DNA of 64,000 nt, taken from Antedon mediterranea (lineage: Eukaryota > Animalia > Echinodermata). Shown in pieces: positions 3,151 to 63,939 of this stretch. The notes under the pieces were generated by a model. That model was given only the letters and a program-made list of their open reading frames with translations, ran no database searches and was not told the DNA's origin. Numbering within the stretch: position 1 is the first letter of the stretch; the number at the start of each line of letters is the position of its first letter. The DNA lies in NCBI RefSeq assembly GCF_964355755.1, contig NC_092673.1, forward strand, positions 17,605,648 to 17,669,647, read 5' to 3'. Made by a program: the position numbers and the translations under genes.

Positions 3151-3187
3151 TTCTTTTAAATTAGAGAACTTTCTGTTTTTATTTTCT

Positions 3188-15025: not shown

Positions 15026-15051
15026 TAAGTACAGACACGACTAAAAGGTGA

Positions 15052-21925: not shown

Positions 21926-24900
21926 ATGGAGAGGTATGGTTTTTCAAATTTATTTAAAATACGAATAAACTAACTTTCAATTATTTGTTGATATTTATTT
22001 TACTTTTTTAAATTTCATTTTTATGGCGCTTTTAACAAAGTGTCAACAAAAAAATATATATCAAAAGACCATAGAGATGTATTGTCCTCAAAAAACATGA
22101 CAAAATGAAGATTAATTAAATCAGACTTTGAATAGGTTATTTTGTAGTTTTAATAAAGTAAATCTCTTCCATAGAAAAGAAAAACAAACAAAAAAATGTT
22201 TTCACTTACAAAATAAATGGTTAAATTTAACTAAAAACCTATTGGCTGGCTGCCAGCCAATTTGACTGTTTTTTGGTTTAAATTACAGTTGTTTCAGGTA
22301 AATAATGTTTTTTTCTATTCAATTGTGGATAACTATTATGTGACAATAAAATGGCGTATTCAACAAAAAAATGTTTAGAATTATTTTTTCAGGGGGACAA
22401 TACATCTTTAAGTATGAAAAAAATTCAAATTTAAACATGCAATCAGGCCTGTCATGAACACTGACATCATCTGGCATTCATTTGGTCATCTCACTTTCTA
22501 GATCTTAAGAGATCTTAAGTTGACTTTTTGAAAGTGTAAAGTTAGGTTGACTTACAGTAAAGGGCAATTTGTATATTATTTCAATATGGAAATAGGTAAT
22601 TCCAAACCTTTTAGGATAATATTGAAGTTTATAACTTTCATTTTGACAGGAACAATTTAGAACAAGCTTTGGTCAGGAATGATTTGGAAACAGTTGAACG
22701 ACTTTGTAGGACGCAACCAGATCTTGTGAAAACTATCGATGAGGTATAACTAAATATAATCAGACTTTAAATAGGCAAATTGGCAGTTTTAATAAGTTAT
22801 TCACTTCCGTAGAAAAAAAAATTATTTCTCTTCACTAAAAACCATTGTCTGATGGACAATTTGACGATTTGTTACTTAATTAAATTACAGTTTTAATTTT
22901 TTTTATGATCCAATTTTGGTCAAAGTGATCTGAACATTCTTTTAAATACAATTTTATGAAATATATATTTTATTGATGTTCAATTCATTTTCCCTCTTTC
23001 CTTTTCTATATTAAAAAAATTGTATTTAAAGATGTATTGTCCCCCTGAAAAAAATTATTATTAAAACTTTTTTGTTGAATATGTCATTTTAATGTCACAT
23101 AATAGTTATCCACTTTGACCAAAAATTAGATTTAAAAAAAATATATTTACCTGAAATAACTGTAATTTAAAGCAAAATATAGTCAAATTGGCGGCCAGCC
23201 AATGGATTTTTGGTTGAATTTAACCATTTATTTTGTCATTTTATTTAATTTTTTTTTTCTACGGAAGTGATTAACTTGATTAAAACTACAAAATAACCTA
23301 TTCAAGTCTGATCTAATTAATCTTCATTTTTCATGTTTTCATGTTTCTAAACTTTACTTAAAATGACCTCAGTGATAATAACTGATAATTTATCAATAAA
23401 GATGACAATTAAGATCATTTACTACAGAGTGCATTATTTAATAATTGTTGTATTTACAGAAATCCAATTTCACACAATGTCTGTTTATGATTATGATTCC
23501 TTTACAGGATGGAAACACTCCACTGTATGTATATTTGTGTGATGACCTAATTAACCCTACTTTAGCAATCGTAAATTGTCTCTTAAATCATGGTGCATCA
23601 ACAACATTGCAAAATAAGGTAATTTACATAGATTTTCGTGAACCATTCTATTTTTTATTTCAATAATGACGATTAGAATTAGAATTGTTTACTAAATTAC
23701 TGTATTTAGCAGTAATTGTTACTATGTTGACAGAATAAACATCATCTCTGTTGTCAGTATTAATTATAAACTTCATGATTATGATTCCTTTACAGGATGG
23801 AAACACTCCACTGCATGTATATCTGAGTGGTGATAGACAAATACAACCTACTTTAGAAATAGTGGCATCCCTTGTTGCATCAGCAACATTACAAAATAAG
23901 GCAATTTATTTTCTTTGAATAATGACAAGATTATTTGTTACATTGTTTAGCTGTAATGGTTGCAATAATTTCCATTGACAGAAAACCAATTACACATTTG
24001 TAATGTAAACTCTAAACTCTTTACTATATTTTATGTTTATTTTTATATACCTCTTTATCAACTCAAACCTATGATACTGTACCTTTAATACAGTACCTAT
24101 ATTACCATGTTGGTAATGATTTTTCTTTTATGTTTTTGCAAATAGTTTAAGAACCTGTATCCGTCATATAATGTATTATTTTGATGTATTATGTTAAATT
24201 GGATGCACCACTTCTGTGTGTGCCACCGATGCAAAGGTGTCATTTCCTAATAAATTATTATTATTTTTTTTCATTTTTTTCATTTATCTTTTTTATTTCG
24301 GAATATCATGGTGACATAATATAAAATCCATAGCAAAAGAGAGAAAAAAAAATCTTAATCTAACAGCTCATAGAACAAAAACAAAGATATGTAAATAAAT
24401 AAAGTCAATGCAACAAAGCATTCCATTGTATGTGCATTCTTGACACATTAAGAACGTGGCGATTAATGGCCATGATCAACGAATTACTACTTGCGTTCAC
24501 ACGATTTTTAAAACTAAAAACAGATTTTCTAATGAACTCATCAAAGGATGGGACGTCATTTAAGACAAACATCATGCTTGCACTACAATGTCTAGGCTGC
24601 TTCAGCAGCAGACGTAAGGCATTGTTATAACATACTTTCAGTGATCTCAGAGTGCTCTTATTATATCTACACCATAAGGTTGAACAGTACATGCTGACAC
24701 AGTAACTCTTAAATAGATAACATTTAGTCTTAGTAGAACATTTTCCAAACTTTCTATTTAGATAGTTGGCCCTAATGCAAATAGATCGATATTGACGTTT
24801 GATGTCACCTTCATCACTCAGGTTATTACTGATCACATGACCAAGATAGGTTATTGAATTATCAACGATTAGAGGTGCCCCATTTAAGGTAATATGTGGA

Positions 24901-27900
24901 ACACCTTTGAGGTTGCGGACTTTCGGGCAAAATAGCAAGCATTTGGATTTGGTTTCATTAAAAGTAATATCTTGGTCACTAGCAAAACCTTTACAGAGTC
25001 CAATTAGGCTTTGTAAGCCAGTCACTAACGGAGCCAAAAGGACCAAGTCATCAGCAAAGCTTAGGCAATTCAGTTTAAGACTGTTAATTTCACAACCTTC
25101 TTTTGACTTAGTCAGTTCAACAGTTAACGGATCAGTGTACACATTGTAAAGTAGAGGGGACATAACGCCTCCCTGGCGAACCCCATTACGAACAGTGAAA
25201 GAATCGGAAACGGAACTTCCCCACCTGACAACAAATTCCTGGTTCCTATACCATGACCTCAGTATCTTAACTACAGGTGAAGGGGTACCCCTGTCAATTA
25301 GGGTCTTGAAAAGTGTCCAGTGGTTCACTTTATCAAAGGCTTTGCTAGCGTCCAAGAAACAGCAATAAACTGGGCTACCATGATTGTTGTAATGCTCGAT
25401 AATCTGTTTAAGAGCAAATATACACAATTCGGTTGAGTGACCAGATTTGAAGGCAAACTGGTTGTCATGGGAGTCCAGTGAATTACCACAATGTTGTATC
25501 ATTACAGACTCTAGAAGTTTAGAAGCTACACATGCCAAAGCTATTGCTATTATTATTATTATTATTACATAAAAGCTATTATTAGTATTTATAAACCTCA
25601 TATATTATGATTCTTTTACAGGATGGGAACACTCCATTACATGTATATCTGAGTGATGGATTCAATCATACCTTAGAAATAGTGACTTGTCTTGTACAGC
25701 ACAGTACATCAACCACATTGCAAAATAAGGTACTTTAAAATTGCTAATGTAGGCTAACATTCTTTATCTACTGCAGTAAACCCTTATATTTTTCTTTTAT
25801 ATCAACAATGACAATTTACGATTACTACATAATTTAGCAGTAATTGTTGCTATAGTTTGTATTGATTTTTGATTTTTTGATTTTTTGTCTGTTTTCAGTA
25901 TTTATAAACTTTATAATTATGATTTCTTTACAGGATGGGGACACTCCATTACATGTATATCTGAGTGATGGATTTAATCATACCTTAGGAATAGTGACTT
26001 GTCTTGTACAGCAATGTACATCAGCAACCATGCAAAATAAGGTAATGTACAGAGATTTAGATCTGTTGTGGTAAACCAGTCTATTGTTTAAAAAATGACA
26101 ATATTATTTACTAAATTACTTATCCAATAATTGTTGTATTTAAAGAGAAACAATTTCGTTCGCTTACCCTCTAGGAGTTCACAAAAACATGACCACGACC
26201 CAGGAAATCAGAAACCCGGGTCAGACCTATGCATATTACATATGATTACTGAATTAGACATTTCATGAGGGGTACCCAACTTATGTACAAAAACCAAAAT
26301 ATAGCGACCTGGGTAGTAAAGCTAGTTTTATTTTTTGGAAGTAACAGAGTTGAGATGGGTTACAGAAATGCTGTTTAGGACTGTTGTTATGACATCTTGA
26401 TGACGTCGTAAGAATGTTAAAATGCAGGTTTTTCTTGAGCATAGTAAAATTAGCGATATTACAGAAAGTATGATTAGGGAAACAGAAACTATAATATTTG
26501 GCAGTGTATGAAATTTGAGCCTGCTACTGAGAATAAGTACGATGAGACGCGAAATATCATTTATTAATAATTATATCTACTGACCACACACATCATAAGA
26601 ATATAATTTTAGAAGTTTTGCAAATTGATAATGTGTTACCTAAAACATAAAATAATAGACTTTATGGTACACAGGAGGGAAAGTCAATGCATCAATCACT
26701 GAGTGGTTATGTTATGTGCAATTTGAATGACTTGCACAATTTGAAATTGCTTATTTTCTTAAGTATTTGATTATCAAAACACATCTTACATATTACAGAT
26801 GTCTGTTATCAATATTTTAAAAGTCATGACTATGATTCTTTTACAGGATGGAAACACTCCATTACATGTATATCTGAGTGGTAATTATGACCCTACCTTA
26901 GAAATGGTGACATGTCTCCTAAATCAGGATGCATCAACAACATTGCAAAATAAGGTAATTTATAGGAAATTGTCAGTGTAATAGGCTAACAATCTATATC
27001 TTCTACGGTAAACATTCTCTCCCCCCCCCCCACTCATTTTATCATAGGCCACAAGAAATTCTATTGTTTCTGATGTTATTCTATAATTTGTTAATGTTAT
27101 ACAATGTTAATTTTATGGTTCACATCTCATCAAAAGTTCTCTAAAATGTGTGGCAATTTTGATACCTTTTATACCCCCTTTGCTCATAGGGTGTACAATT
27201 TGTATATTTAATTCTCTGACACATATCATTATCTCTATGATTCATTGTACAAAATTAAATAAATTATTGAGGTGCCCATACACCATATTTGTAGTGGGCC
27301 CTTTTAAGCCTCAGTTGAATTACACAATCAAAAATGGCAACTCCTGTGGCAGGCCATTGCTCAAATAAACTGGATATTTTGTGGAGAACATTTGATATAG
27401 TCCACAATATCAACTTTCAAAATGTTTACTGCTATTGCAAACAATTCACATAATGTCTGTTGTCATTATTTATAAACTTTATGATTATAATTCCTTTCCA
27501 GGATGGAAACACTCCATTACATGTATATCTGGGTGATAGATATCACCCTACCTTAGAAATGGTGGCTTATCTGAAACAGCATGGTGCACCAGTAACATTG
27601 CAAAATAAGGTAATGTAAAAAGAATTGTCAGGACAATCAGCTGCGGAAACATTTTTTTTGTTTCGTTGTTTATCAATAATGGCAATTATTATTATATTAT
27701 TTAGATTTACATATGTGAACTTTATTCAATCAATCGTACATTTGTTTAGGTGTCTAGAAAACTCAGATCTCGAATATACCTGAGTTTTCTAGATCTAGAA
27801 AACTCGGATATCTGACTTTTCTAGTTCCAAAATGGAGTTTTCTAGACACCCCATTTTTTTGGTATTATAATGGTAAACATAATAAAGTGTATTTACAGTG

Positions 27901-30872
27901 ATTTTTACAAAAAAAAAATTAATTATAAAATATATATAGTGATTATTTACAGTAATGATAATAATAAGAATGAATTTAATTATATTGACTATTATTTTTT
28001 TCGGTATTTATTTATAATGGTAACCATAATAACGTGTATTTACAGTGATTTTTACTTTTAATAGAAATAGTAAATACTATTCTCGTCTAAATTTAATATT
28101 TTGTCCAACGCAGCCAATGATGCTCTATCAACCAATCACTAGACAGTAAATGTTTGAGCCATGATATGATACTGTATCAATTAAAAAATATTCTGATACT
28201 CATTTTTATAGGAAGGAAATACACCCATCTCTGTTTTGAAAAATAACAAGCAGATACAGGACCCAGAAAAAAATGAAATTTTAAATTTTTTTGAAAGTAA
28301 GTGAAGTTTTAATTATCAAGATTTTGGGGTAAACCAATTTTCATTGCAAAGGACAGATGTTCAATTTCTTTTTCCAATGCTTTGATAAACTGATTTTGAA
28401 AATGTTCTCATACTGATCATATGATGAGCTCTGTAAAGGTTGTGCATGTGTAAGGTATCCATGCATTGTGCTATTGAAAAACTCTTTAAACTTATAGAGA
28501 ATCATTGTGAGGATGTATGTAATTTAATTATAATTTCTGAACCATGCCTTATGTAGATGTGAATGAATTATGCACATTTACAGGTTTGATAGTTTTCTTC
28601 TTTCATTAGCATTGACTATAATCACAAATGATACAGTCATTAAAAATACAATTCACGGGGTAGGGGTACAAAAACGGTTTTTAGAGTCAAAGTAATATTG
28701 ATGGATAATATGGTGCATAATTAGCAAGCAAGGTGATTGTTTACAACTGGAAATGTTTTGTGATCGATTAGGAGCTACCTGTTTCAGAGCATAGATTTCA
28801 TTTTTATGAGTTATTATAGGGGTCAAAAGGCTAATGATGACCTCTCAATAATTTATTTTGGGATCAATTGCTTACCCTGACCAACCTGTTTCTGTGTATA
28901 ATCATCAATGCACTATGACGAAGAAGAATGTCCAGAATCCAACTACAAAACCAACATAAGGTATATTAGGGACTTTTAGATTTGAGTGAACGTGAACTAA
29001 ATCCACGTGCGTCCACATGGGTCGTAGTCGACTGTTACTCGTCGACAGATATATGAACGCAACCTTTTTTGACTCCGACCCCATGATCCTATTTTGGTAA
29101 TTCTCGCGACCCAACATTGCGTATTTGAGCCACAGACCCCCCCCCCCCCCATGTTAAGTGACACCTACTGTATAGATGGCCGCAAATGGTACTCTTGCAC
29201 GTAAAAATCCATATAAATGGCACCTCTAGTCCACTATAATAATAGTTGCTCGCAATTGGAAAAAGGATCGTATCCTACTTTTTCCGCCGGTAAAGACATT
29301 TGTGTTCAATGCTAACATCCCGAACCATAAAAAGTCCCCCTCCCCTGGCTAGGAACAACATCGCTATGAGTGTAATTTGAGAGGGACCTGTTTCTATTGA
29401 ATGTTAATTGTAAATGTTCCCACCGCCGGTACATCAAAGGATGCACTTCAGTCAAGTTACACACTCATTGCAAACTACAGAACATAGTGTCATAGAACCA
29501 GTTGGTAGATTATTAAATCCACATCCTAATGGGGATTCCCCACTTGTATATTAGCAACAAACTATGCGTCAAAAGCGTCCATTGGCCCGTTGTCGATTCC
29601 CAATTGTGTGTACGCTACTCGCCTCAACATAGGGAAAAACTGTAGATATGTAAAATATAATTAGCCTTTGTAGATTCTACAAAACTGAGAACATTTCACA
29701 TCTAGATCAGTTTATACTTGCTAAAAAGTTTCAGTATCTGAAACATTCACGATCCATCAATTTGTTTTCGCGACTGAAACATTGGGTCTTGACCCATACT
29801 GTAGGTTGCGGAACGGCGGTTTAGATTAAGTGGACATTTATGTTGATTACATTAGCTGGCGATAATAACTACATAAGCTGAAAGGCAATTTTTGTTAATA
29901 CATTAGCTGTTAACCATTTGCTGGTAGCTGGTGTTGATTTTGTATTCAAATAATTATTATGATTATTGAGCTGTCGAAAAAAAATTAATAAATCCAATGT
30001 GCTTTATAAAAAATAATACTATAGAGTTCTTGCACTCGGGTATTAATAGAATATTTCAAAAGTTGTAACTTGAAAGTTTTATACATTACTGTATGTGAAT
30101 TGAATTGATATTCTACAGTGAGTGTACTGTATGTAAATGAGATTTCTAGCATACTGTAAAACATGGAAAAGAAGCCCATAGGCTTTTTTAGGACTCCTGG
30201 ATGGGCGTCTTTTTAAGATATATGATAATATGATCAGGATGATAATGACATAGAAGTTGGTGATATTGAGGATATTACTCAAAAATTTAGGATTTATAAA
30301 ACAAAGAATATAATAACGTACCTTATTATTATAGGAATAAAATAATTAGAGTGAGTAGGTTTTTGTTGTTGTTGTTTCTAAAAGCTGATAATAGATATAG
30401 AAAATATTATTATATTATAATCATATTCAAATAATGATGATTATTAAACAATACTTATAACAATGCTGAATTTATTACTTGAAATTTGAAAATGATTTTG
30501 TGGTTTTTCATGAATTTTTATTCATAAATCTTAAAACAGTAATTATGATAAGAATGCTATCTACTGAATTTATTACAAGAAATTGGAAATGATTTTGTGG
30601 CGTTCCAGGAATTATACTGCAAACTTATTCAAATAATGATTATGATTTCAACAATATTTATGATGCTATCTACTGAATTTATTACATTGGAAAATATTGT
30701 GGTGTTTTATGAATTTATATTCATTATTCATAATCTTAAAAAAACAATTACAATTTCCACAATAATCATGATAACTGTTATACTAAATTGATTGATACTG
30801 TTTTTCATTCGTATAGATCTCTCAGAGGATGTTGAAGACTTAAGTCACAGACTTAGCCCAATGATGCAATAA
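21926..30872 (+). CDS. Ankyrin-repeat gene 1 (10 coding exons, ~296 aa): N-cap, 6 single-repeat exons, C-cap, acidic tail
   Basis: join(21926-21933, 22650-22743, 23508-23618, 23796-23900, 25622-25729, 25934-26041, 26847-26954, 27502-27609, 28212-28296, 30817-30872). All acceptors are AG and all donors GT except one GC. The frame is continuous from MERNNLEQALV to LSHRLSPMMQ*. Confidence 0.8.
22076..22410. mobile_element. Kolobok-like MITE, copy A
   Basis: AGATGTATTGTCC...GGACAATACATCT followed by TTAA. Confidence 0.65.
22650..22743 (+). CDS. Gene 1 N-cap exon
   Basis: ttttgacag|G..GAG|gtataa. (R)NNLEQALVRNDLETVERLCRTQPDLVKTIDE. Paralog at 52551-52647. Confidence 0.85.
23027..23340. mobile_element. 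Kolobok-like MITE, copy B (inverted relative to A)
   Basis: TTAA-AGATGTATTGTCCCCCTG.. Reverse complement of ~22095-22410. Confidence 0.65.
23508..23618 (+). CDS. Gene 1 ankyrin exon R1
   Basis: DGNTPLYVYLCDDLINPTLAIVNCLLNHGASTTLQNK, 111 bp, phase 0/0. Confidence 0.9.
23796..23900 (+). CDS. Gene 1 ankyrin exon R2 (GC donor, possibly degenerate)
   Basis: DGNTPLHVYLSGDRQIQPTLEIVASLVASATLQNK, 105 bp. Donor AAG|gcaatt. Lacks the xHG turn. Confidence 0.65.
24267..25545 (-). mobile_element. 5'-truncated LINE RT fragment (RTEX-like) in a gene 1 intron
   Basis: Open RT frame: QFAFKSGHST, FLDASKAFDKVNH, GVRQGGVMSP, FADD, stop at 24405. A-rich tail on the minus strand. Flanked on both sides by (ATT)n. 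Confidence 0.88.
25622..25729 (+). CDS. Gene 1 ankyrin exon R3
   Basis: DGNTPLHVYLSDGFNHTLEIVTCLVQHSTSTTLQNK, 108 bp, phase 0/0. Confidence 0.9.
25934..26041 (+). CDS. Gene 1 ankyrin exon R4
   Basis: DGDTPLHVYLSDGFNHTLGIVTCLVQQCTSATMQNK, 108 bp. Close duplicate of R3. Confidence 0.9.
26847..26954 (+). CDS. Gene 1 ankyrin exon R5
   Basis: DGNTPLHVYLSGNYDPTLEMVTCLLNQDASTTLQNK, 108 bp. Confidence 0.9.
27502..27609 (+). CDS. Gene 1 ankyrin exon R6
   Basis: DGNTPLHVYLGDRYHPTLEMVAYLKQHGAPVTLQNK, 108 bp. Confidence 0.9.
27748..27851. mobile_element. 104-bp Mutator-like MITE
   Basis: GGTGTCTAGAAAACTC..GAGTTTTCTAGACACC. 9-bp TSD CATTTGTTT/CATTTTTTT (1 mismatch). Termini resemble 8545-12831. Confidence 0.65.
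28212..28296 (+). CDS. Gene 1 C-cap exon
   Basis: tttttatag|GAA..GAAA|gtaagt. EGNTPISVLKNNKQIQDPEKNEILNFFE, phase 0/1. Confidence 0.8.
30817..30872 (+). CDS. Gene 1 probable terminal coding exon
   Basis: tttttcattcgtatag|AT.. continues phase 1 as (N)LSEDVEDLSHRLSPMMQ*. No paralog in the window to confirm it. Confidence 0.55.
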
Positions 30873-50200: not shown

Positions 50201-50794
50201 GAAATGGATTGCCACAGTCATCATTGCGCATCGGTTTTTTGCACGCAGTATTTTATTTATGCATTATGAAAAATGGAAAAAGTGGCTACCCTAAATCTGA
50301 TTAAAATTGCCTCAAATGACGCTAGAACGCGTTGCTTCCGTGGGCTTTGCCCTCTAGACTCCCTGGCGGCCCCCTTGCACCCAGCCTAGAGAGAGATTAA
50401 CAACATTTTTGACCAAATAACTGATATGTTTTTCTGATAGTGATACTCACAATTGCCTAGAGGGATGTTTTTGCTGTTTTTTTGGGGTTTAAAGTAAAGT
50501 GGGCCAAACTGAATGGCAGCCATTTGTTGTGTATTAATTAAAGAAAAGTCATAATTGCCGTTTGGGAAAATGAATCCACAAAACAATGTTTCCAGTTGTT
50601 GATCTGTCAATCAATTATTATGAACAAAATAATTTTTTAAATATTTAAAGATGAGACCATGGCCAGTTTAATATCAACTTGGTGATAAACTTAGATTTTA
50701 CAATCGTACAATGTACACAATAGGCTTTATTTGTTTAACAAGTATAACAGTTTAAAAATCTAAAGTATAATATGTTGTAATGCTAGCACAGGAG

Positions 50795-52318: not shown

Positions 52319-55300
52319 ATGGAAAGGTACGTTTGTTTTTTATTTCAAATCCAACAAAAATAACTGTAACGGTTAAAAACAAATTAAAATGTTTGAATAG
52401 TTAGCAATACTTTAAAACTTTCTTAAAAGATTATGAAATCATAAATATTACAATTAAAGGGCTCATTCTCATCAAATATAATGATTATTTCCATCAATCA
52501 TCATTTTCATAATATAATGTAATAATTCATTATTTCTTACATTTTAACAGGAACAAATTAGAAGAAGCTTTGTTGTACACGTGTGATTTGCAAACAATTA
52601 AACACATTTGTAAGACGCAACCAGATCTTGTGAAATCTATCAATGAGGTATTTAAAACAAGATGTACATTATTTTTATAATATTATCAAATAAGAAATTT
52701 AATTAAAGTTTAAAATTATAGAGATTGTAATTTTCTTTATTATTTATTATAACATTTTTTTATATAATGAATTACAATTATTTTGCAATATCACACTAAT
52801 GATGTTGGTAAGACCTGCATGCACTGATTAACCACATTAGGCTAAAAATAATAATATAAATACACACTGATGATGGGGATAACCTGCATGTACTGATTAA
52901 CCACATTAGGCTAAAAATAATAATATAAATACACACTGATGATGGAGGTATAACCTGCATGTACTGATTAACAACATTATGCTAAAAATAATAATATAAA
53001 TACACACTGATGATAGGGGTATAACCTGCATGCACTGATTAACCACATTAGGCTAAAAATAATAATATAAATACACACTGATGATGGAGGTATAACCTGC
53101 ATGTACTGATTAACCACTTTAGGCTAAAAATAATAATATAAATACACACTGATGATGGGGGTATAACATGCATGTACTGATTAACAACATTAGGCTAAAA
53201 ATAATAATATAAATACACACTGATGATGGGGGTATAACCTGCATGCACTGATTAACAACATTAGGCTAAAAATAATAATATAAATACACACTGATGATGG
53301 GGGTATAACCTGCATGTACTGATTAACCACATTAGGCTAAAAATAATAATATAAATACACACTGATGATGGGGGTATAACCTGCATGCACTGATTAACCA
53401 CATTAGGCTAAAAATAATAATATAAATACACACTGATAATGGGGGTATAACCTGCATGTACTGATTAACCACATTAGGCTAAAAATTATAATATAAATAC
53501 ACACTGATGGGTATGGCAAGCCTCAGCTGTCTGCAGTATTCGAAATATTATATTATTATATCATTTTCACGCTACATCACAAGAGAGGACTCAATCAGAT
53601 ATAAAGCAAGCAGCAATTTTAGGACTGAGAGACTGACGTTTTGCTAAAATGCATACTCGACTATAGTTTATAGGTCCCAGCTGCTGGACCCAAAAAACGT
53701 CTGGGAAAAGTGTCTATGAGGGCTCACGGTTGAACGATTTTGGATTCTTGCCCTTTGATTGGTTGACTTCAAGGCAAATGGTTTAACCTAAATTTGTTAT
53801 CGTATCTAGCTTAACTTAATTATGATATTAATTTCATTGGGTGTTAAAAATCAGTACCAAAAGTATGTACCAACTTTCTCTTCCATTGAGTATAAATTCT
53901 AGAAGTTGCACTTAATTTACTGAAATTTCTCATTACTTATATGTAAATTCATTAAACTGCTTATTGGCCTCATATTGTTAACATCTAAACATTTGTTTGT
54001 ACAATTTTATGAAATATGTATTTTATTAATGTTCAAATTTTGTGATTGATATTGTACAGTAAGTAGATTTTAATGATTACTTACATTAAGTAATAGGCTA
54101 ACAATCACTAGATCTGATCCATGGTAATATATTATATTTTGTTTTCATTTTATCAATAATGATAATTAGGATTTTATCACATTATTTAGCAGTAATTGTT
54201 GTTGTTTGTATTTACAAAAAAAACCAATTTTACATAATGTCTGTTGTCAGTATTTATAAACTTCATTATGATTCCTTTCCAGAATGGGAACACGCCATTA
54301 CATTCATATCTGGGGAGTGTATATACACCTACCTTAGAAATAGTGACATGTCTCATTCAGCATGGGACACCAGTAGCATTGCAAAATAAGGTAATGTACA
54401 GGGATTTGCTAGTGTAATAGGCTAATATTCTAAAGATATGCTGTGGTAGACCATTCTATTTTGTTATACTCATTTATCAATAATGATAATTAGGATTTTA
54501 TCACATTATTTAGCAGTAATTGTTGTTGTTTGTATTAACAAAAAAACCCAATTTCACATAATGTCTGTTGTCAGTATTTATAAAACTTCATTATGATTCC
54601 TTTCCAGGATGGTGAGACTCCATTACATTCATATCTGGGGAGTCTAAGCCTATATCCACTTCCCTTAGAAATAGTGACGTGTCTCATTCAGCATGGGGCA
54701 CCATTAGCATTGCAAAATAAGGTAATGTACAGGGATTTGCTAGTGTAATAGGCTAACATTCTATAGATCTACTGAAGTAAACCATTCAATGAGAGAAAAA
54801 AGTAAGCACATTAACAAAAATCAAATTTGATTAAAACAAACCAAATAAAAAAATAACTAAATAGTTATATATGATTTATGATAACTGATTTAAAGTGTAC
54901 AGCTACCTATCATATAACATAAATCTTTAATTTTCTTAATGAACAATTTTTTTTATATATTCAGTTATTAATAAACAATTATTGACAATGGTCTAATTAA
55001 TTGTAAATATGAAATAAAATGCGACAACTACTAAACAACTAAAAATGTTTATGTTAAAAAAATTAATAGAATCTGATTTTAATAAAAAATAATTATTAAT
55101 TAATAACCTACTCCCTCCCTTACCTTACAAAAAATGCTTCTGTCAGTCTATCCAGCTAATTATAAACATGGCCTTAAACTGCATCTGGAGATCTTTTTCC
55201 AACCTAGGATATTTTTGTGCAAACATTTTGCCACAAAAGGAAGAGAAATGTAAATAATATTTAGCCTTTAGTTAGTGGTTTCCAAAATTTAAAATGTTTG

Positions 55301-58300
55301 AGCAATGCAATTTAAAAAAGAAAGCTAATATGAAATTATTCTGTTCAAACTGAATGCTTTAAGAACAGTTCCGTCTCTTATCTTATGACTTTTCGGGGAA
55401 AAATGACATTATTAAAGTTGCTATATAAAATTTGATACTAGTAAGTGTCAATAGATGGTTCTTAAATACATGACCTTTGATAAATAACTGAAAATTGCAC
55501 TGTACACAAGGCAAATAAATACAGATATGATGGAATTTATGTAGTCAAATATAATTTTCATCCTGAGAATTACCTTAATTTTGTTTATTGCATGGCATTG
55601 TTCACCAAATTCCTGTCTTGGTACAATTGATGATGGGATGGTATAAGGCTTCATGATATGATATGATCTTCATCGAGGCAAATGATAAATTTGTTTTGAT
55701 CGTCAATATAGTACACTGGTTTTCATTAGGTGTTAAAAATTAGTACCGAAAGTATGTACCAACTTTCTCTACCATTGGGTTAAAATTCTAGAAGTTGAAC
55801 TTAATTTACAGAAATTTCCCATTACGTAAATTTATATATAAATTCATTAAACTGCTTTGTGGCCTCATATTTTTAATATCTAAACATTTGTTTGTACAAT
55901 TTTATGAAATATTTATTTTATAACGTTCAAATTTTGTGATTGATATTGTACAGTAAGTAGATTTTAATGATTACTTACATTAAGTAATAGGCTAACAATC
56001 ACTAGATCTGATCCATGGTAATATATTATATTTTGTTTTCATTTATCAATAATGATAATTAGGATTTTATCACATTATTTAGCAGTAATTGTTGTTGTTT
56101 ATATTAACAAAAAACCCAATTTTACATAATGTCTGTTGTCAGTATTTATAAACTTCATTATGATTCCTTTCCAGGATGGTGAGACTCCATTACATTCATA
56201 TCTGAGGAATGTATATAGAATACATAGCTTAGAAATAGTGACTTGTCTCATTCAGCATGGGACACCAGTAGCATTGCAAAATAAGGTAATGTACAGGAAT
56301 TTGCTAGTGTAATAATAAGCTAACATTATATAGATATGCTGAAGTAAACCATTCTATGAGAGAAAAAAGTAAGCACATTAACAAAAATCAAATTTGATTA
56401 AAACAAACCAAATAAAAAAATAACTAAATAGTTATATATGATTTATGATAACTGATTTAAAGTGTACAGTTACCTATCATATAACATAAATCTTTAATTT
56501 TCTTAATGAACAAAAAAATCTATTTTTTTTTATATATTCAGTTATTAAATAACAATTATTGTCAACGGTCTAATTAATTGTAAATATGACGTAAATACTA
56601 AACAAATAAAAATATTTATGTTAAAAAAATTAATAGAATCTGATTTTAATAAAAAATAATTATTAATTAATAACCTACTCCCTCCCTTACCTTACAAAAA
56701 ATGCTTCAGTCAGTGTATCCAGCTAATTATAAACATGGCCTTAAACTACATCTGGAGATCTTTTTCCAACCTAGGATCTTTTTATGCAAATATTTTGCCA
56801 CAAAAGGAAGAGAAATGTAAATAATGTTTAGCCTTTTAGTTAGTGGTTTCCAAAATTTAAAATGTTTGAGCAATGCAATTTAAAAAAGAAAGCTAATATG
56901 AAATTATTCTTTTCAAACTGAATGCTTTAAGAACAGTTCCGTCTCTTATCTTGTGACTTGTTGGGGAAAAATGACATTATTAAAGTTGCTATATAAAATG
57001 TGATACTAGTAGTGCCAATAGATGCTCCTTAAATACATGACCTTTGGTAAATAACTGAAAATTGTTTAAGTACAAAGCAAATAAATACATATATGTTGGA
57101 ATTTATGTTGTCAAATATAATTGTCATCCTGAGAATTAACTTAATTTTGTTCATTACATGTTATTGTTCACCAAATTCCTGTCTTGGTACATTTTATTAT
57201 GAGATGGTATCAGACTTCATGATATGATTTTCATTAAGGCAAATGGTTTAAACTAAACTTGTTATCGTTAATATCGAACTTAGCCTAATTATGATATTGA
57301 TTTCATTAGGTGTTAAAAATCAGTACCGAAAGTATTTACCAACTTTCTCTACCATTGAGTATAAATTCTAGAAGTTGCACTTAATTTACTGAAATTTCCC
57401 ATTACCTAAATTTATATGTAAATTCATTAAACTGCTTATTGGTCTCATATTGTTAACATCTAAACATGTATTTGTACAATTTTATGAAATATGTATTTTA
57501 TTAATGTTCAAATTTTGTGATTGATATTGTACAGTAAGTCGATTTTAATGATTACTTACATTAAGTAATAGGCTAACAATCACTAGATCTGATCCATGGT
57601 AATATATTATATTTTGTTTTCATTTTATCAATAATGATAATTAGGATTTTATCACATTATTTTGCAGTAATTGTTGTTGTTTGTATTTACAAAAAAAAAA
57701 CAATTTCACATAATGTCTGTTGTCAGTATTTATAAACTTCATTATGATTCCTTTCCAGTCTGGTGACACTCTATTACATTCATATCTGGGGAGTGGATAT
57801 AAACCTACCTTAGAAATAGTGACGTGTCTCATTCAGCATGGGGTACCATTAGCATTGGAAAATAAGGTAAATGTACAGGAATTTGCTAGTGTAATAGGCT
57901 AACATTATATAGATATGCTGAAGTAAACCATTCAATGAGAGAAAAAAGTAAGCACATTAACAAAAATCAAATTTGATTAAAACAAACCAAATAAAAATAG
58001 TTATATATGATTTATGATAACTGATTTAAAGTGTACAGTTACCTATCATATAACATAAATCTTTAATAATAATAAATGAAAACTTATATAGCGCCGGTAT
58101 CCTCCACCCATGTGGCGCTCATGGCGCTTTGTGCATTAACAACGTGCGAGAACATCAGCGAATAGCGACGTCTTTAGGTTGGTCTTGAAACTGTTTAGAC
58201 TAGTTGAGCATTTAACTGTTGCTGGTAAGCTGTTCCATACACTTGCGGCCGCAACGAAAAAAGATCTCTGACCCCACTGATTTTTCGCTCTACGCTCTTG

Positions 58301-61300
58301 AAGAAGGTTTTGTGACAATGATCGTAGGCCTCTGCGGGATGATTCGTAACGATCCACAAGGTCAGATAAATAAGCAGGAGCACTGTCATTTAGGATCTTG
58401 AATACAAACAACGCAAGTTTGTACTTAATACGTTGTTGAACAGGCAACCAATGCAAATCCATCAGGACAGGAGTTATGTGAGCGTTTGATTTTGTATAAG
58501 TTACAATTCTAGCTGCCATATTTTGCAAGCGCTGCAAACGTTGTATTTGAGATTTTGGTATGCCAAACAACAAGGCATTACCAATGTCAATTTTAGAAGT
58601 GACAAATGAGTGTACAATCAATTCAGCTGTTTTCTTGTTAAGATTACCGCGAATACGACCAAGGTTCCTAATCGATATGCATGCTGCTTTGGATACAGTT
58701 GTTATTTGTGCTTCCATAGTGAGATTACTATCCAGCATGATTCCCAGATTCCGGACCACCGATGAGGGAGCGATGTTAGAGTTTCCGATTCTGAAATGTG
58801 TGATGTTGATTTTGGAGATGTTACCTTTAGACCCGACGATAATAAACTCTGTCTTTCCATCATTCAACTTTAGGTAATTTGTTGTCATCCAATTGCGAAC
58901 ATCTTCTATACAGGCTTCCATCTTACTGATTGCTGCAGCAACATCCCTTTCCACTGGATTTACTGACACATAAATCTGTGTATCATCTGCATAGAAATGG
59001 AAATGTAGACTGTGTTTGCGAATAATGTCACCAAGGGGAAGCGTATAAATGGAAAACTGGCCAGGACCAATTACTGACCCCTGTGGTACACCATATTCCA
59101 GGCAAGCTTCATCTGAGAATGCATCATTGATACAGACTAGCTGACGTCTTCCTGTAAGATATGACTGGAACCAGTTAAGAGCAACACCATTTATGCCAAT
59201 GCGATTTCTCAGACGGGTTATCAGTCTTCGGTGATCAACTGTATCAAACGCTGCTGACAAATCCAACAACACCAATAGCGTTATTTTCCCATCATTCATT
59301 CCTTGTAACAAATCATTCTGTACCTTTAAAAGGGAACTCTCCGTGCTATGACATGCACGATATGCCGACTGGTAATTCTCATTTAAATTATGCTTTTGAA
59401 GATATGGAGTAATGCGTGATGTCACTACACGCTCCAGAGTCTTTCCAAGAAAAGAAAGATTCGACACCGGGCGGTAATTTTTCAGCGTGTTATGATCCAA
59501 GTTTTGCTTTTTTATTAAAGGACGAACGTGAGCAATTTTCAGTTCATCTGGCACTATGCCGGTATTAAGAGAATGGTTAATGATTTCCGTTATTATTGGA
59601 ACGACTGCGTCTATACACTTCTTCAGTATAGAAGTAGGAACTGGATCTAACCTGCATGATTTTGTTGGTGATTTCATCAGAATGTTGCGGATCTCATCTT
59701 GAGATGCTGGTGTAAATGTTGTGAGATGCTGATGAACAGCTGTCACAGGCTCATTAAATGACATGTCATCAATCTTGAAGTCGTCTCTGATGAAAAACTG
59801 ACAGAACCTGTTCGCAAGATCTAAGTCAGAAAGACTATCTGAGAGAGGTGATACCTGGCGATGATGAAGGAGTTGGTTAACAATTTTAAAAAGTCCTTTC
59901 TGATCTGCTGCATGTTCTTCACACAAGCCAATGTAGTAGTTGGCCTTTGCCTTTCTTACCATGGAATTTACATTCCTCTTCTGTGCAATGTAAGCTTGAC
60001 GATCTATTTCCAGATGAGAGATTCTCCATTTCTTTTCAAGCTTACGCTTTGTTCTTTTCTCAGCATAGATGTCACTGTTATACCAACTAGTGTTTGGTCG
60101 GACCTTTACTGTTCTCTTTTTCGGTGGTGCGTGTTTGTCAAGAAGTTCACTCAAAGTGGTGACATATAGTCGTACTTTACTTGATAAATCAAGATTTGAG
60201 AGCGAAGTTCCGAGATCAGACTGTGTGATATCTTTACATAATGTCTCAAAATTTATAGCATTCCAATGACGAGTTTCGATGGATTTAGTGATTACGGGTG
60301 GCTTCTTGATAAGGAGATTACATGTGATTGCATAGTGATCTGATATACCATCAATGACATTAAGGTTTGAGAAAACAGGAGGATCAGATGAACGAGTGAT
60401 CAGCAAGTCTAATGTATGACCATGTCGGTGTGTAGGTGTAGACACATGCTGTTGAAGACTGCTTGCTGCAAGTAGATTCCGAAAATGAATTGCATCTGCA
60501 TCATTTGGCATATCCACATGGATGTTAAAGTCTCCAACGAATAGTATGGGAGCCGGCTTCAATACATAGTGATCAACCAAAGTTGAGAATTCTTCAGTGA
60601 AAACATTTAGACTGCAACCCGTTGATTTGCTTTGAGGACGATATACTGCTACGAGGAAAACTGAGGATGCATTGCTGACTATTTCCACATTTAGCAGTTC
60701 AAATGATTTTGGTAATAATCCCGTGTCATAACATTTAACCGCTATGCTTTCCTTGTAAAGAAGTGCAACTCCACCACCTCTTTTAGTACTAGCACGGGGA
60801 GCATGTTTTAGAGAGTATCCGTTGGGTGTAATATTTCCTATAACTGATGTGTCTTCTGGTTTAAGCCACGTTTCCGAAAGGGCAACAACATCCAGATTAT
60901 GTTCGATAACGAAATCCACAAATTCTGTTGTTTTGTTCCGAACGGATCTTGTATTAATACAGCAAAATGTAATATTGTTTTTAGATAAGAGAGAGTTTGA
61001 TGATAAGTCCGGAAATGATAGATTGTTTTTAGTGTGTTTGTTTGTTTGTTTGTCACGCCCAGCTCTTGTACCACGCCTGGTTTTTCTTTTTGGCCTCCTT
61101 GGTAATAGGTGGATACTACAGCTACTGGAGTTCAACTTAAAAGATTGTATAATTAAGCAAGATTCTTCAGGAAGTTCACAACTGTTATTGTTGTTGGTTA
61201 CACAGCCCTGTAAACCATGAAGAAACTCAGAGCTATAGCTAATTAGCATGACAACAGCAGATCTTCAAGCATGAGGTGTACAAGGTCATTTACATAACAA

Positions 61301-62970
61301 TATGCACAGTCAGATTGAAAGTACAGGGCTAGCTTCCCACTGATGCTAGTAGACCATTGTTCTTGGGCAGTGATGAGTTTGAATTAAAACAATAAAGGCA
61401 CAAGCAGGGCCTAGCTGAACTTCAGGAAACAACAAGAAAAACAACTGCGATTTACTCCAAGATACGATTATTTCCACATAAGAAATTTGTGAATATATGG
61501 TGCTCAATTTGCTATTCCAGCATCCAGTAAAACTTATTTGATGAAAAAAACCATCTGCAAACAGATACGAAGTTGTTATGCACAGAGCAATATAGAGCCG
61601 CCACATGGGCGCTGCAACACTCCTCCTCTTATTTAAGTTTCTTAATGAACAAAAAAATCTATATTTTTTTATATATTCAGTTATTAAATAACAATTATTG
61701 ACAATGGTCTAATTAATTGTAAATATGAAATAAAATGCGACAACTACTAAAGAACTAAAAATGTTTATGTTAAAAAATTAATAGAATCTGATTTTAATAA
61801 AAAATGATTATTAATTAATAATGTGCTCCTTCCCTTATCTTACAAAAAAAATGCTTCTGTCAGTCTATCCAGCTAATTATGAACATGGCCTTAAAGAAAT
61901 CCTTTTCCAACCTAGGATCTTTTTGTGCAAACATTTTGCCACAAAATGAAGAGAAATGTAAACAATGGTTTGTTAGTTTTCAAAATCTAAATTGTTTAAG
62001 TAATGCAATTTAAAAAAGAAAGGTAATATGAAATTATTCTTTTCAAACTGAATGCTTTTAAGAAAAGTTCCGTCTCTTATCTTATGACTTTTTTGGAAAA
62101 ATGATTAAAATTAAAATATAATATACTAGTAAGTGCTCACAGATGCTTCTCGAATTCATGAACTTTGGTAAATAACGGAAAATTGCACTGTACACAAAGC
62201 AATACAGATATGATGGAATTTATGTAGTCAAATATAATTGTCATCCTGAGAATTACCTTAATTTTGTTTATTGCATGGTATTGTTCACCAAATTCCTGTC
62301 TTGGTACATTTGATGATGGGATGGTATCAGACTTCATGATATGATATGATCTTCATCGAGGCAAATGATAAATTTGTTTTGATCGTCAATATAGTACACT
62401 GGTTTTCATTTGGTGTTAAAAATTAGTACCGAAAGTATGTACCAACTTTCTCTACCATTGGGTTAAAATTCTAGAAGTTGAACTTAATTTACAGAAATTT
62501 CCCATTACGTAAATTTATATATAAATTCATTAAACTGCTTTGTGGCCTCATATTTTTAATATCTGAACATTTGTTTGTACAATTTTATGAAATATTTATT
62601 TTATAACGTTCAAATTTTGTGATTGATATTGTACAGTAAGTAGATTTTAATGATTATTTACATTAAGTAATAGGCTAACAATCACTACCTGTAGATCTGA
62701 TCCATGGTAATTATATTTCGTTTTCATTTATTAATAATGATAATTAGGATTTTATCACATTATTTAGCAGTAATTGTTGTTGTTTATATTAACAAAAAAC
62801 CCAATTTCACATAATGTCTGTTTTCAGTATTTATAAACATCATGATTATGATTCCTTTCCAGAATGATGACACTCTATTACATTCATATCTGAGTAGTGT
62901 ATATCCACCTACCTTAGAAATAGTGACGTGTCTCATTCAGCATGGGACACAAGTAGCGTTGCAAAATAAG
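52319..62970 (+). CDS. Ankyrin-repeat gene 2, 5' part (3' end outside the window)
   Basis: join(52319-52326, 52551-52647, 54283-54390, 54608-54721, 56175-56285, 57759-57866, 62863-62970). All GT-AG. Begins MERNKLEEALLYTCDLQ.., paralogous to gene 1. Confidence 0.82.
52551..52647 (+). CDS. Gene 2 N-cap exon
   Basis: (R)NKLEEALLYTCDLQTIKHICKTQPDLVKSINE, ttttaacag|..GAG|gtattt. Confidence 0.85.
52793..53510. repeat. Intronic tandem array, 71-bp unit x ~10
   Basis: TACACACTGATGATGGGGGTATAACCTGCATGTACTGATTAACCACATTAGGCTAAAAATAATAATATAAA. Confidence 0.95.
54283..54390 (+). CDS. Gene 2 ankyrin exon R1
   Basis: NGNTPLHSYLGSVYTPTLEIVTCLIQHGTPVALQNK, 108 bp, phase 0/0. Confidence 0.9.
54608..54721 (+). 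CDS. Gene 2 ankyrin exon R2
   Basis: DGETPLHSYLGSLSLYPLPLEIVTCLIQHGAPLALQNK, 114 bp. Confidence 0.9.
56175..56285 (+). CDS. Gene 2 ankyrin exon R3
   Basis: DGETPLHSYLRNVYRIHSLEIVTCLIQHGTPVALQNK, 111 bp. Confidence 0.9.
57759..57866 (+). CDS. Gene 2 ankyrin exon R4
   Basis: SGDTLLHSYLGSGYKPTLEIVTCLIQHGVPLALENK, 108 bp. Confidence 0.9.
58067..61631 (-). mobile_element. L2-type LINE, apparently complete, inserted in a gene 2 intron
   Basis: L2-style 3' end (..GCGCTATATAAG..(TTA)n). TTTAA duplicated at 58062-58066 and 61632-61636. Sister intron units show the empty site AATCTTTAA(T/G)TTTCTTAATG. Confidence 0.9.
58136..61249 (-). CDS. APE endonuclease-reverse transcriptase polyprotein (L2-like)
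   Basis: 1037 aa uninterrupted: INTRSVRNK, SETWL, GDFN, HGHTLDL, SDH, NYRPVSNL, LLDLSAAFD, GVPQGS, YADD, HWLP. Confidence 0.92.
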   Translation of the reverse strand: MLISYSSEFLHGLQGCVTNNNNSCELPEESCLIIQSFKLNSSSCSIHLLPRRPKRKTRRGTRAGRDKQTNKHTKNNLSFPDLSSNSLLSKNNITFCCINTRSVRNKTTEFVDFVIEHNLDVVALSETWLKPEDTSVIGNITPNGYSLKHAPRASTKRGGGVALLYKESIAVKCYDTGLLPKSFELLNVEIVSNASSVFLVAVYRPQSKSTGCSLNVFTEEFSTLVDHYVLKPAPILFVGDFNIHVDMPNDADAIHFRNLLAASSLQQHVSTPTHRHGHTLDLLITRSSDPPVFSNLNVIDGISDHYAITCNLLIKKPPVITKSIETRHWNAINFETLCKDITQSDLGTSLSNLDLSSKVRLYVTTLSELLDKHAPPKKRTVKVRPNTSWYNSDIYAEKRTKRKLEKKWRISHLEIDRQAYIAQKRNVNSMVRKAKANYYIGLCEEHAADQKGLFKIVNQLLHHRQVSPLSDSLSDLDLANRFCQFFIRDDFKIDDMSFNEPVTAVHQHLTTFTPASQDEIRNILMKSPTKSCRLDPVPTSILKKCIDAVVPIITEIINHSLNTGIVPDELKIAHVRPLIKKQNLDHNTLKNYRPVSNLSFLGKTLERVVTSRITPYLQKHNLNENYQSAYRACHSTESSLLKVQNDLLQGMNDGKITLLVLLDLSAAFDTVDHRRLITRLRNRIGINGVALNWFQSYLTGRRQLVCINDAFSDEACLEYGVPQGSVIGPGQFSIYTLPLGDIIRKHSLHFHFYADDTQIYVSVNPVERDVAAAISKMEACIEDVRNWMTTNYLKLNDGKTEFIIVGSKGNISKINITHFRIGNSNIAPSSVVRNLGIMLDSNLTMEAQITTVSKAACISIRNLGRIRGNLNKKTAELIVHSFVTSKIDIGNALLFGIPKSQIQRLQRLQNMAARIVTYTKSNAHITPVLMDLHWLPVQQRIKYKLALFVFKILNDSAPAYLSDLVDRYESSRRGLRSLSQNLLQERRAKNQWGQRSFFVAAASVWNSLPATVKCSTSLNSFKTNLKTSLFADVLARC
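62863..62970 (+). CDS. Gene 2 ankyrin exon R5
   Basis: NDDTLLHSYLSSVYPPTLEIVTCLIQHGTQVALQNK, 108 bp. Confidence 0.9.
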
Positions 62971-63927
62971 GTAAATGTACAGGGATTTGCTAGTGTAATA
63001 GGCTAACATTATATAGATATGCTGAAGTAAACCATTCAATGAGAGAAAAAAGTAACCACATTAACAAAAATCAAATTTGATTAAAACAAACCAAATAAAA
63101 AAATAACTAAATAGTTATATATGATTTATGATAACTGATTTAAAGTGTACAAATCTTTAAGTTTCTTAATGAACAAAAAAATCTATTTTTGTTTATATAT
63201 TCAGTTATTAAATAACAATTATTGACAATGGTCTAATTAATTGTAAATATGAAATAAAATGGGACAACTACTAAACAACTAAAAATGTTTAGGTTAAAAA
63301 AATTAATAGAATCTGATTTTAATAAAAAAATAATTATTAATTAAAAACCTGCTCCCTCCCTTACCTTACAAAAAATGCTTCTGTCAGTCTATCCAGCTAA
63401 TTATAAACATGGCATTAAACTACATCTGGAGATCCGTTTCCAACCTAGGATCTTTTTGTGCAAACATTTTGCCACAAAATGAAGAGAAATGTAAACAATG
63501 TTTTGTTAGTTTTCAAAATCTAAATTGTGTGAGTAATGCAATTTAAAAAAGAAAGGCAATATGAAATTATTCTTTTCGAACTGAATGCTTTTAAGAAAAG
63601 TTCCGTCTCTTATCTTATGACTTTTTTTGAAAAATGAATTCTCGTTAAAATATAATATACTAGTAAGTGCTCACAGATGCTTTTTGAATACATAAACTTT
63701 GGTAAATAACTGAAAATTATACTGTACACAAGGCAAATAAATACAGATATGATGGAGATCTGATCCATGGTAATATATTATATTTTGTTTTCATTTATCA
63801 ATAATGATAATTAGGATTTTATCACATTATTTAGCAGTAATTGTTGTTGTTTGTATTAACAAAAAAACCCAATTTCACATATGTCTGTTGTCAGTTTATA
63901 AACTTCATGATTATGATTCCTTTTCAG

Positions 63928-63939
63928 GATGGTGACACC
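63928..63939 (+). pseudogene. Gene 2 truncated ankyrin exon stub
   Basis: Intact acceptor attccttttcag|GATGGTGACAC, then an abrupt jump to intron-like AGATCTGATC. Confidence 0.7.

What the first reader, a model, noticed from the sequence alone, without database searches (positions are those of the whole stretch)
54283..62970. Hypervariable patch inside exons whose flanking introns are nearly identical
Seen: the framework TxLHxYL...LEIVTCLIQHG...LxNK is almost fixed. The segment between the helices differs in nearly every cassette, in sequence and by whole-codon length. Gene 2: GSVYTPT, GSLSLYPLP, RNVYRIHS, GSGYKPT, SSVYPPT. Gene 1: CDDLINPT, SGDRQIQPT, SDGFNHT (x2), SGNYDPT, GDRYHPT. The turn residues also vary (NGN/DGE/SGD/NDD). 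The ~1.5-kb introns duplicated with the gene 2 exons look far more alike than this ~25-bp coding patch, all exon indels preserve frame, and Tyr is frequent. Inference: diversifying selection, or patch-wise gene conversion, on a ligand-binding surface.
Basis: partly seen in the sequence, partly recalled or inferred. Interest (0 to 1): 0.8.

Follow-up and report, generated by a model that had tools for sequence, protein, structure and literature searches.

The report
Feather star's variable ankyrin exon cassettes
These are tandem exons that each encode one ankyrin repeat, whose predicted binding face changes about four times faster than the surrounding introns, in a feather-star gene family whose relatives join such repeats to a ROC-COR GTPase and a death-type domain, so they likely form an undescribed variable immune-type receptor in this animal group.

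Summary
The window holds two paralogous genes built from phase-0 exons of one ankyrin repeat each (6 in gene 1; 5 plus a truncated one in gene 2). In gene 2 the patch (pairwise difference 0.24) and the turn (0.33) exceed introns (0.04-0.08) and framework (0.06). The changes are mostly non-synonymous (surface omega about 4.9, p=0.001), and all 6 exonic indels keep frame. The variable sites are the hairpin turn, the end of helix 1 and a lengthened helix1-helix2 loop. Relatives are crinoid ankyrin-ROC-COR-(DED) proteins with the same hypervariable positions (31 distinct patches in 35 repeats); one Antedon mediterranea gene model matches four gene-1 exons. The exon-plus-intron units are recombination mosaics. 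Limits: gene 1 shows no positive-selection signal and lacks ROC; gene 2's ROC is not in the window; five cassettes give modest statistics; no expression data. Best reading: a ligand-sensing ROCO receptor family diversified by exon duplication, recombination and selection. It parallels brown-algal LRR-ROCOs and fungal ankyrin NLRs. Ten literature searches found no description in echinoderms.

The parts
52319..52326 (+). Gene 2 start mini-exon (ATG, M-E-R, phase 2)
   Evidence: homologous to 21896-21975; N-terminus MER matches P0003, P0005, P0010, P0011
52551..52647 (+). Gene 2 N-cap exon (phase 2-0)
   Evidence: 66-85% identical to the N-cap of P0003/5/10/11
54283..54390 (+). Gene 2 ankyrin cassette 1; patch GSVYTPT at 54313-54333
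54608..54721 (+). Gene 2 ankyrin cassette 2; patch GSLSLYPLP at 54638-54664 (+2 codons)
56175..56285 (+). Gene 2 ankyrin cassette 3; patch RNVYRIHS at 56205-56228 (+1 codon)
57759..57866 (+). Gene 2 ankyrin cassette 4; patch GSGYKPT at 57789-57809
62863..62970 (+). Gene 2 ankyrin cassette 5; patch SSVYPPT at 62893-62913
   Evidence: no Pfam hit on its own, 83% identical to cassette 1
63928..63939 (+). Truncated sixth cassette of gene 2: intact acceptor, 12 nt, then a junction back to intron sequence and an in-frame stop
53771..63927 (+). Tandem array of exon-plus-intron units (period about 1.55 kb), recombinant mosaics
58067..61631 (-). LINE retrotransposon inserted in gene 2 intron 4; open endonuclease-RT frame of 1041 codons; flanked by TTTAA on both sides
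21926..21933 (+). Gene 1 start mini-exon
22650..22743 (+). Gene 1 N-cap exon
23508..23618 (+). Gene 1 ankyrin cassette 1 (CDDLINPT)
23796..23900 (+). Gene 1 ankyrin cassette 2 (SGDRQIQPT); 3-codon deletion after helix 2, GC donor
25622..25729 (+). Gene 1 ankyrin cassette 3 (SDGFNHT)
25934..26041 (+). Gene 1 ankyrin cassette 4 (SDGFNHT)
26847..26954 (+). Gene 1 ankyrin cassette 5 (SGNYDPT)
   Evidence: identical in P0004
27502..27609 (+). Gene 1 ankyrin cassette 6 (GDRYHPT)
   Evidence: identical in P0004
28212..28296 (+). Gene 1 C-cap exon (phase 0-1)
   Evidence: 28 of 28 residues identical to P0004; splice sites
30817..30872 (+). Gene 1 terminal exon with stop; gene 1 is a 296-codon ankyrin-only frame

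Best explanation
Each cassette is a phase-0 exon encoding one ankyrin repeat with a fixed framework and a fast-changing predicted binding face, and the array is likely the sensor of a crinoid ankyrin-ROC-COR-death-effector-domain receptor family under selection for new ligand specificities. Shown: the exon anatomy, the mosaic exon-plus-intron units, the excess of amino-acid change at the turn and patch in gene 2, and the architecture of relatives with the same repeat. Inferred: unequal crossing-over or conversion copies, deletes and re-pairs whole cassettes and keeps introns and framework alike, while point changes and whole-codon indels at the turn, the end of helix 1 and the helix1-helix2 loop are favoured by selection. 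Inferred from the relatives: gene 2 continues past the window into C-cap, ROC, COR and a DED-like domain. Inferred by analogy and untested: binding of a foreign or altered-self protein in the cytoplasm switches the ROC-COR unit and the DED recruits a caspase or adaptor. Gene 1 is an ankyrin-only paralog under relaxed constraint, either decaying or acting as a decoy or cassette reservoir.
For: Ankyrin identity: Pfam Ank for 10 of 11 exons, 3 above the curated cut-off; model of relative P0003, pLDDT 87, matches DARPins at TM about 0.78. Rates in gene 2. Codon models: M2a over M1a p=0.017; surface omega 4.91, p=0.0012. Positions taken from non-window repeats hold 15 of 29 gene-2 changes in 11 of 36 codons, p=0.014 (p=0.0018 with my narrower 9-codon set). 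The three indel-free exons alone: 8 changes in 27 nt against an intron rate of 0.099, P=0.006. Between genes 1 and 2 surface pN 0.50 vs pS 0.21-0.27. Frame kept in 6 of 6 exonic indels vs 7 of 28 intronic. Mosaic units: intron breakpoint permutation p=0.0005; 9 of 10 possible splits among 17 informative columns, best tree explains 6. Family: P0006 joins two repeats of the gene-2 framework to a C-cap and ROC; its closest ROC relative P0065 and P0063, P0064, P0066 carry COR and DED hits; P0001, P0052 are ankyrin-ROC-COR-DED. A third framework (P0082, unlabelled) shows the same variable positions in 6 repeats and has a ROC P-loop.
Against: Gene 1: no positive selection (p=0.93), framework pN/pS near 0.87 in four indel-free exons. 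All 11 pooled: p=0.22. Gene 2 framework omega is 0.87, so purifying selection there is not shown. Recombination inflates site-model tests, and the 8-codon surface class was chosen after seeing the data. Patch alone in indel-free exons P=0.06; contiguous-window permutation p=0.13. No ROC or COR exon in the window. None of the fetched gene models contains gene 2's cassettes. Intron 5 ends in a truncated cassette. Expression, ligand and immune role are untested. The lengthened loop is at the rim of the usual ankyrin binding face, not its centre (inference; no coordinates were available).
Confidence: 0.65

Rival explanations
1. The patch is an unconstrained surface loop in recently duplicated, relaxed or decaying genes; indels and indel-linked mutation or misalignment make it look fast.
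For: Framework omega 0.5-0.9; gene 1 neutral-like; an indel-rich intron spot is as divergent as the patch; the two indel-bearing cassettes contribute most patch difference; truncated cassette and LINE in gene 2.
Against: Neutrality cannot exceed the intron rate, yet indel-free exons still do (P=0.006); the turn has no indel and differs at 0.33; third codon positions are spared (7/9/3); 17 of 17 exons keep splice sites and frame.
Confidence: 0.15
2. Introns and framework are homogenised by conversion while old, diverged patches escape it or are pasted in from paralogs (patch-wise conversion), without point-mutation selection.
For: Strong mosaicism; cassettes 2 and 3 share an identical turn but have the most different patches; many paralogous donors exist.
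Against: Synonymous difference in the patch is 0.03, not raised; no gene-2 patch recurs among 35 non-window repeats listed at protein level; escape from homogenisation at exactly the binding codons would itself need selection. The synonymous test has low power (P=0.17).
Confidence: 0.12
3. The variable surface serves self/non-self or gamete recognition, or a non-immune signalling partner, and not pathogen sensing.
For: Fungal NLRs with the same evolutionary pattern act in allorecognition (PMC4986451, PMC13449251, passages); no immune data here.
Against: Large multi-locus expansion with DED effectors fits counter-invader systems of marine invertebrates (PMC8195603, passages); no signal peptide-like start (M-E-R then N-cap helix), so the sensor is likely cytoplasmic.
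Confidence: 0.08

Closest known systems
[quoted passage not shown]
   Same: ROCO family; one repeat per symmetric exon; sensor domain is a recombination hot spot; positive selection on the binding face; inactivated repeat exons in introns; many pseudogenes; immune role proposed, not shown.
   Different: Repeat is ankyrin (phase 0, 105-114 nt, variable length) and not LRR (phase 2, fixed 72 nt); animal host; DED-like C-terminal domain; no inverted cassettes in this window (12 of 12 hits on the + strand); alternative splicing not tested here.
Fungal NLRs with highly conserved ANK/WD/TPR repeats, HET-E type (PMC4986451: passages; PMC13449251: passages)
   Same: Near-identical internal repeats, concerted evolution by unequal exchange, positive selection at ankyrin inner helix and hairpin, coupling to cell-death effectors.
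   Different: Switch is ROC-COR, not NACHT/NB-ARC; repeats are N-terminal and split by introns that are duplicated with them; a length-variable helix1-helix2 loop; allelic repeat-number polymorphism untested.
DAPK1 (architecture recalled: kinase, ankyrin, ROC-COR, death domain)
   Same: Ankyrin before ROC-COR and a death-fold domain after it.
   Different: No kinase in the ankyrin-bearing relatives scanned; multi-copy and hypervariable; DED rather than death domain in Antedon.
Designed ankyrin repeat proteins (DARPins; PMC8229355: passages)
   Same: Fixed framework with N- and C-caps and variable residues at the same aligned positions; top fold matches.
   Different: Natural; repeats of about 36 residues with a loop of 5-23 residues in place of the short turn.

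Membership tests
Ankyrin repeat (PF00023) | Sequence profile match | tested here: met
   10 of 11 exons hit, E 1.2e-5 to 0.027; 3 of 11 above the cut-off; Atlas features agree
Ankyrin repeat (PF00023) | Stacked helix-loop-helix fold | tested here: met
   Model of relative P0003 (gene-2 framework), pLDDT 87.4; Foldseek TM about 0.78 to DARPins
Ankyrin repeat (PF00023) | 33-residue period | tested here: not met
   35-38 residues here; extra residues between helix 1 and 2
ROCO proteins | ROC-COR tandem in the window's own genes | tested here: inconclusive
   No ROC/COR match in the window: gene 1 ends without it; gene 2 runs off the window
ROCO proteins | ROC-COR tandem in proteins with the same repeat | tested here: met
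   P0001, P0007, P0011, P0052 pass Roc and COR-A cut-offs; P0006 passes Roc; P-loop and G3 motifs intact
ROCO proteins | GTP binding and hydrolysis | not testable with these tools
   The clade holding P0006 has THKG in place of THxD at G4
Brown-algal exon-shuffling ROCO system | One repeat per symmetric exon | tested here: met
   11 of 11 cassettes are phase 0-0
Brown-algal exon-shuffling ROCO system | Recombination among repeat units | tested here: met
Brown-algal exon-shuffling ROCO system | Positive selection on the binding face | tested here: inconclusive
   Met for gene 2, not for gene 1 or pooled
Brown-algal exon-shuffling ROCO system | Repeat is an LRR | tested here: not met
   Ankyrin
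Brown-algal exon-shuffling ROCO system | Intact repeat exons on the non-coding strand | tested here: not met
   12 of 12 nhmmer hits on +; one window only
Brown-algal exon-shuffling ROCO system | Alternative splicing of repeat exons | not tested
   No RNA reads were examined
Fungal HiC NLR | NACHT or NB-ARC switch | tested here: not met
   Close relatives carry Roc/COR
Fungal HiC NLR | Over 85% internal identity across 100 residues | tested here: not met
   Gene-2 cassettes are 78-83% identical to cassette 1
Fungal HiC NLR | Repeat-number polymorphism between individuals | not tested
   One assembly window only
DAPK1 | N-terminal kinase | tested here: not met
   Genes start M-E-R then N-cap; no kinase hit in ankyrin-bearing relatives
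Dscam-type mutually exclusive cassettes (recalled) | Conserved docking site pairing with a selector before each exon | tested here: inconclusive
   A weak 25-nt pairing in gene 2 only, none in gene 1; gene models join consecutive cassettes

The most novel reading that the evidence does not exclude
Feather stars run a natural DARPin library: ankyrin cassettes with a CDR-like, length-variable loop are recombined between genes and, because every cassette is phase 0, skipped or re-joined in individual cells (by splicing or somatic rearrangement at the recurrent intron break site), with ankyrin-only genes such as gene 1 as donors or decoys, giving a combinatorial intracellular receptor repertoire wired to a ROC-COR/DED death switch.
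Probability: 0.15. Interest if true: 0.9.

Novelty: new variant of a known kind. Interest (0 to 1): 0.62.

Why it matters
Crinoid immunity is barely described, and most ROCO proteins have no known function. An animal ROCO family with a recombining, positively selected sensor and a death-fold effector would be a further independent origin of a design known from brown algae and fungi, and would support the idea that ROC-COR can serve as an NLR-like immune switch. It names exact codons and exons to genotype and test. The length-variable loop between the two helices is a natural diversification site that standard DARPin libraries do not appear to use (recalled). Public gene models for the cluster are fragmented, which may have hidden the family.

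Tried and rejected
Assembly artefact: five units differ by 5-8% with a LINE in one and in-frame indels only; rejected. Targeted hypermutation of one chemical type: turn and patch changes are 7 transitions and 12 transversions vs 47 and 43 in introns; no signature. Dscam-like docking: best pairing -18.6 to -21.8 kcal/mol in gene 2, reached by 0-6 of 30 shuffles per exon, found after the fact, the five selectors not independent, absent in gene 1; not accepted. Structured RNA: 0 Rfam hits in the window. ROC/COR exons in the window: none. Homology of gene 1's last exon to the linker of P0006: no alignment. Same repeat type outside the family: 0 of 142 new proteins from the profile search fit a strict pattern; 6 inspected by eye, of which P0082 and P0195 are ankyrin-ROC family members and P0081 has divergent long-loop repeats. 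P0008, the only unlabelled hit among the top 11, has mostly ordinary 33-35-residue repeats. Tree: 18 rows; P0053, P0055, P0069, P0059, P0071, P0072 and distant hits left out; P0070 is a long branch. Codon models are my own implementation with a fixed tree, 3 inserted codons dropped in gene 2 and ambiguous patch codons masked in two gene-1 exons, which lowers power for gene 1. Earlier findings: 4 look-ups, nothing. No whole genome was held. No reads were examined.

Full report
What is there. The window is repeat-rich animal DNA. A profile of one cassette finds 12 copies, all on the + strand: 11 intact exons of 105-114 nt and one truncated. Every intact one is phase 0-0 with an AG acceptor and a GT donor (one GC). 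Pfam of 11 an ankyrin repeat, 3 above the curated cut-off. They belong to two paralogous genes, each opening with an 8-nt start exon and an N-cap exon. Gene 1 (21926-30872) has six cassettes, a C-cap and a short last exon, 296 codons without an internal stop. Gene 2 (from 52319) has five cassettes, 218 open codons, and runs off the window.

The observation. In gene 2 the mean pairwise difference is 0.238 in the patch, 0.333 in the three turn codons, 0.058 in the framework and 0.036-0.053 in the near flanks; the three long introns differ by 5.0-8.3%. Counting minimum changes per column in four units, the intron rate is 0.135; the patch has 12 in 21 nt (Poisson P=4e-5), the turn 5 in 9 (P=0.008), the framework 8 in 78 (P=0.82). 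Against this: 14 of 693 intron windows of 21 nt reach the patch level, nearly all at one indel-rich spot, so 15% of exon-sized intron stretches contain such a window; and a permutation for one contiguous cluster inside the exon gives p=0.13. The patch was also picked from these data. I therefore took variable positions from 35 repeats of nine non-window relatives: those at 0.25 or more hold 15 of 29 gene-2 changes in 11 of 36 codons (p=0.014; p=0.0018 for the 9-codon set I had fixed earlier). With only the three indel-free exons, 8 changes in 27 nt remain against an intron rate of 0.099 (P=0.006); the patch alone gives P=0.06. All 6 exonic indels are multiples of three, against 7 of 28 intronic ones.

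Selection or conversion. In turn plus patch pN is 0.32 and pS 0.07; in the framework 0.05 and 0.08. Changes fall on codon positions 1/2/3 as 7/9/3, against 3/3/4 in the framework. My codon models give M2a over M1a at p=0.017 and surface omega 4.9 (p=0.0012) for gene 2, nothing for gene 1 (p=0.93; omega 0.8 and 0.5) and p=0.22 pooled. Between the two genes surface pN is 0.50 against pS 0.21-0.27. The units are mosaics: along the long introns the closest pair switches at one point (permutation p=0.0005), and 17 informative columns support 9 of the 10 possible splits, of which one tree explains 6. Recombination can inflate the codon tests, so the tree-free counts carry more weight. Import of old patches should raise synonymous change; it is not raised, but the test is weak (P=0.17).

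Where the residues sit. Against DARPin sequences the variable sites align to the hairpin positions before and after the Gly, the residue after TPLH and the two residues ending helix 1; the rest of the patch is an insertion between the helices. A model of relative P0003 (pLDDT 87) places the patch at the end of helix 1 and in the helix1-helix2 loop, less confidently when the loop is long; the fold matches DARPins. Hairpin and inner helix are the ankyrin binding face, and carry the selected sites in fungal NLRs (PMC4986451, passages; PMC8229355, passages). That the long loop adds a second wall to the groove is my inference.

The family. A profile search returned 50 proteins; 10 of the top 11 are labelled Antedon mediterranea. 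P0004 contains gene 1's cassettes 5 and 6, C-cap and last exon, so the window is likely from that feather star or a very close relative. P0003, P0005 and P0006 have gene 2's framework; P0006 continues through a C-cap into ROC. Two ROC-COR searches added 11 more Antedon-labelled and 8 Anneissia-labelled proteins; these are gene models, several clearly fragments, and the searches were capped by length and candidates. Eleven of the Antedon models share one contig length with P0004. DED hits: P0064 above cut-off, P0001, P0052, P0063, P0065, P0066 below it; three have a hydrophobic C-terminal segment. The ROC-COR tree has two crinoid clades, each with Antedon rows grouped together. Three Anneissia proteins show one long-loop repeat next to the C-cap, whereas Antedon proteins have up to 11 or more similar ones, so I infer amplification of that one exon in the Antedon line. 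Across nine relatives 35 repeats give 31 different patches of 5-23 residues, with identical or near-identical cassettes recurring at non-adjacent positions. In the full-library profile search the next family members were P0082 and P0195.

How it likely works. Symmetric exons inside long near-identical introns allow unequal exchange to add, drop and re-pair cassettes without breaking frame (anatomy and mosaicism shown; mechanism inferred). Selection keeps new residues and loop lengths on the binding face (shown for gene 2 with moderate strength). The array would sense a cytoplasmic ligand and signal through ROC-COR to a DED (inferred from relatives and analogy; untested). Gene 1 has lost the switch and looks relaxed. 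Confidence 0.65.

Comparison with what is known. The closest system is the brown-algal LRR-ROCO family: one repeat per exon, shuffling, positive selection, dead exons in introns, alternative splicing (PMC3341825, abstract and sections; PMC11378527, abstract and sections). Fungal ankyrin NLRs share the evolutionary pattern with another switch. Death-fold expansions with ankyrins in marine invertebrates are described (PMC8195603, passages), without this family in the passages seen. It works like these systems but is a member of neither. Ten full-text searches (listings seen) showed no paper on a crinoid or echinoderm ankyrin-ROCO family; subscription journals and supplements were not covered.

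Verdict. Real feature, new variant of a known kind, interest 0.62.

Noticed in passing
window 62693, 63756, 63940 (compare 54110, 56004, 57585): Three of six copies of one intron site are rearranged at the same base: a 6-nt insertion reading TA-CCTG-TA, a ~490-nt deletion ending there, and the truncation of cassette 6 ending there. The insertion resembles a Tc1/mariner excision footprint (recalled). Unexplained; could be a recurrent break site.
   Followed up: partly
window 58067-61631, minus strand: LINE with an open 1041-codon endonuclease-RT frame and a 5-bp flanking duplication, inserted after the unit was duplicated.
   Followed up: partly
window 36846-39782 (-), 24408-25604 (-), 316-4051 (-): Further LINE-type elements: a 978-codon open RT frame, a truncated RT inside gene 1 intron 2, and a broken element at the left end.
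   Followed up: partly
window 52962-52986 vs the segment about 30-55 nt before each gene-2 cassette: One copy of a 71-bp tandem repeat in the intron after the N-cap is weakly complementary to the conserved pre-acceptor segment; not seen in gene 1.
   Followed up: yes
window 43913-47216, 50794-52163, 13560-15029, 52787-53509: Tandem arrays of 89 bp x37, 31 bp x44, 130 bp x11 and 71 bp x10.
   Followed up: no
window 22092-22414 and 23023-23339: Inverted copies of a ~320-bp element (81% alike) flank gene 1's N-cap exon and could pair in the pre-mRNA.
   Followed up: no
P0006, P0063-P0068, second ROC of P0011: One crinoid ROC clade has THKG instead of THxD at the G4 motif in the Antedon rows, which may alter nucleotide preference.
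   Followed up: no
P0011, P0064, P0065: Some family members end in a hydrophobic segment (Kyte-Doolittle 19-mer 3.0-3.4); P0011 is modelled with two ROC-COR units, possibly a fused gene model.
   Followed up: no
P0002: Antedon protein with two alternating cassette frameworks, loops up to 23 residues and no ROC hit.
   Followed up: partly
P0068: Kinase-ROC-COR-death protein within the same crinoid ROC clade, with no ankyrins.
   Followed up: no
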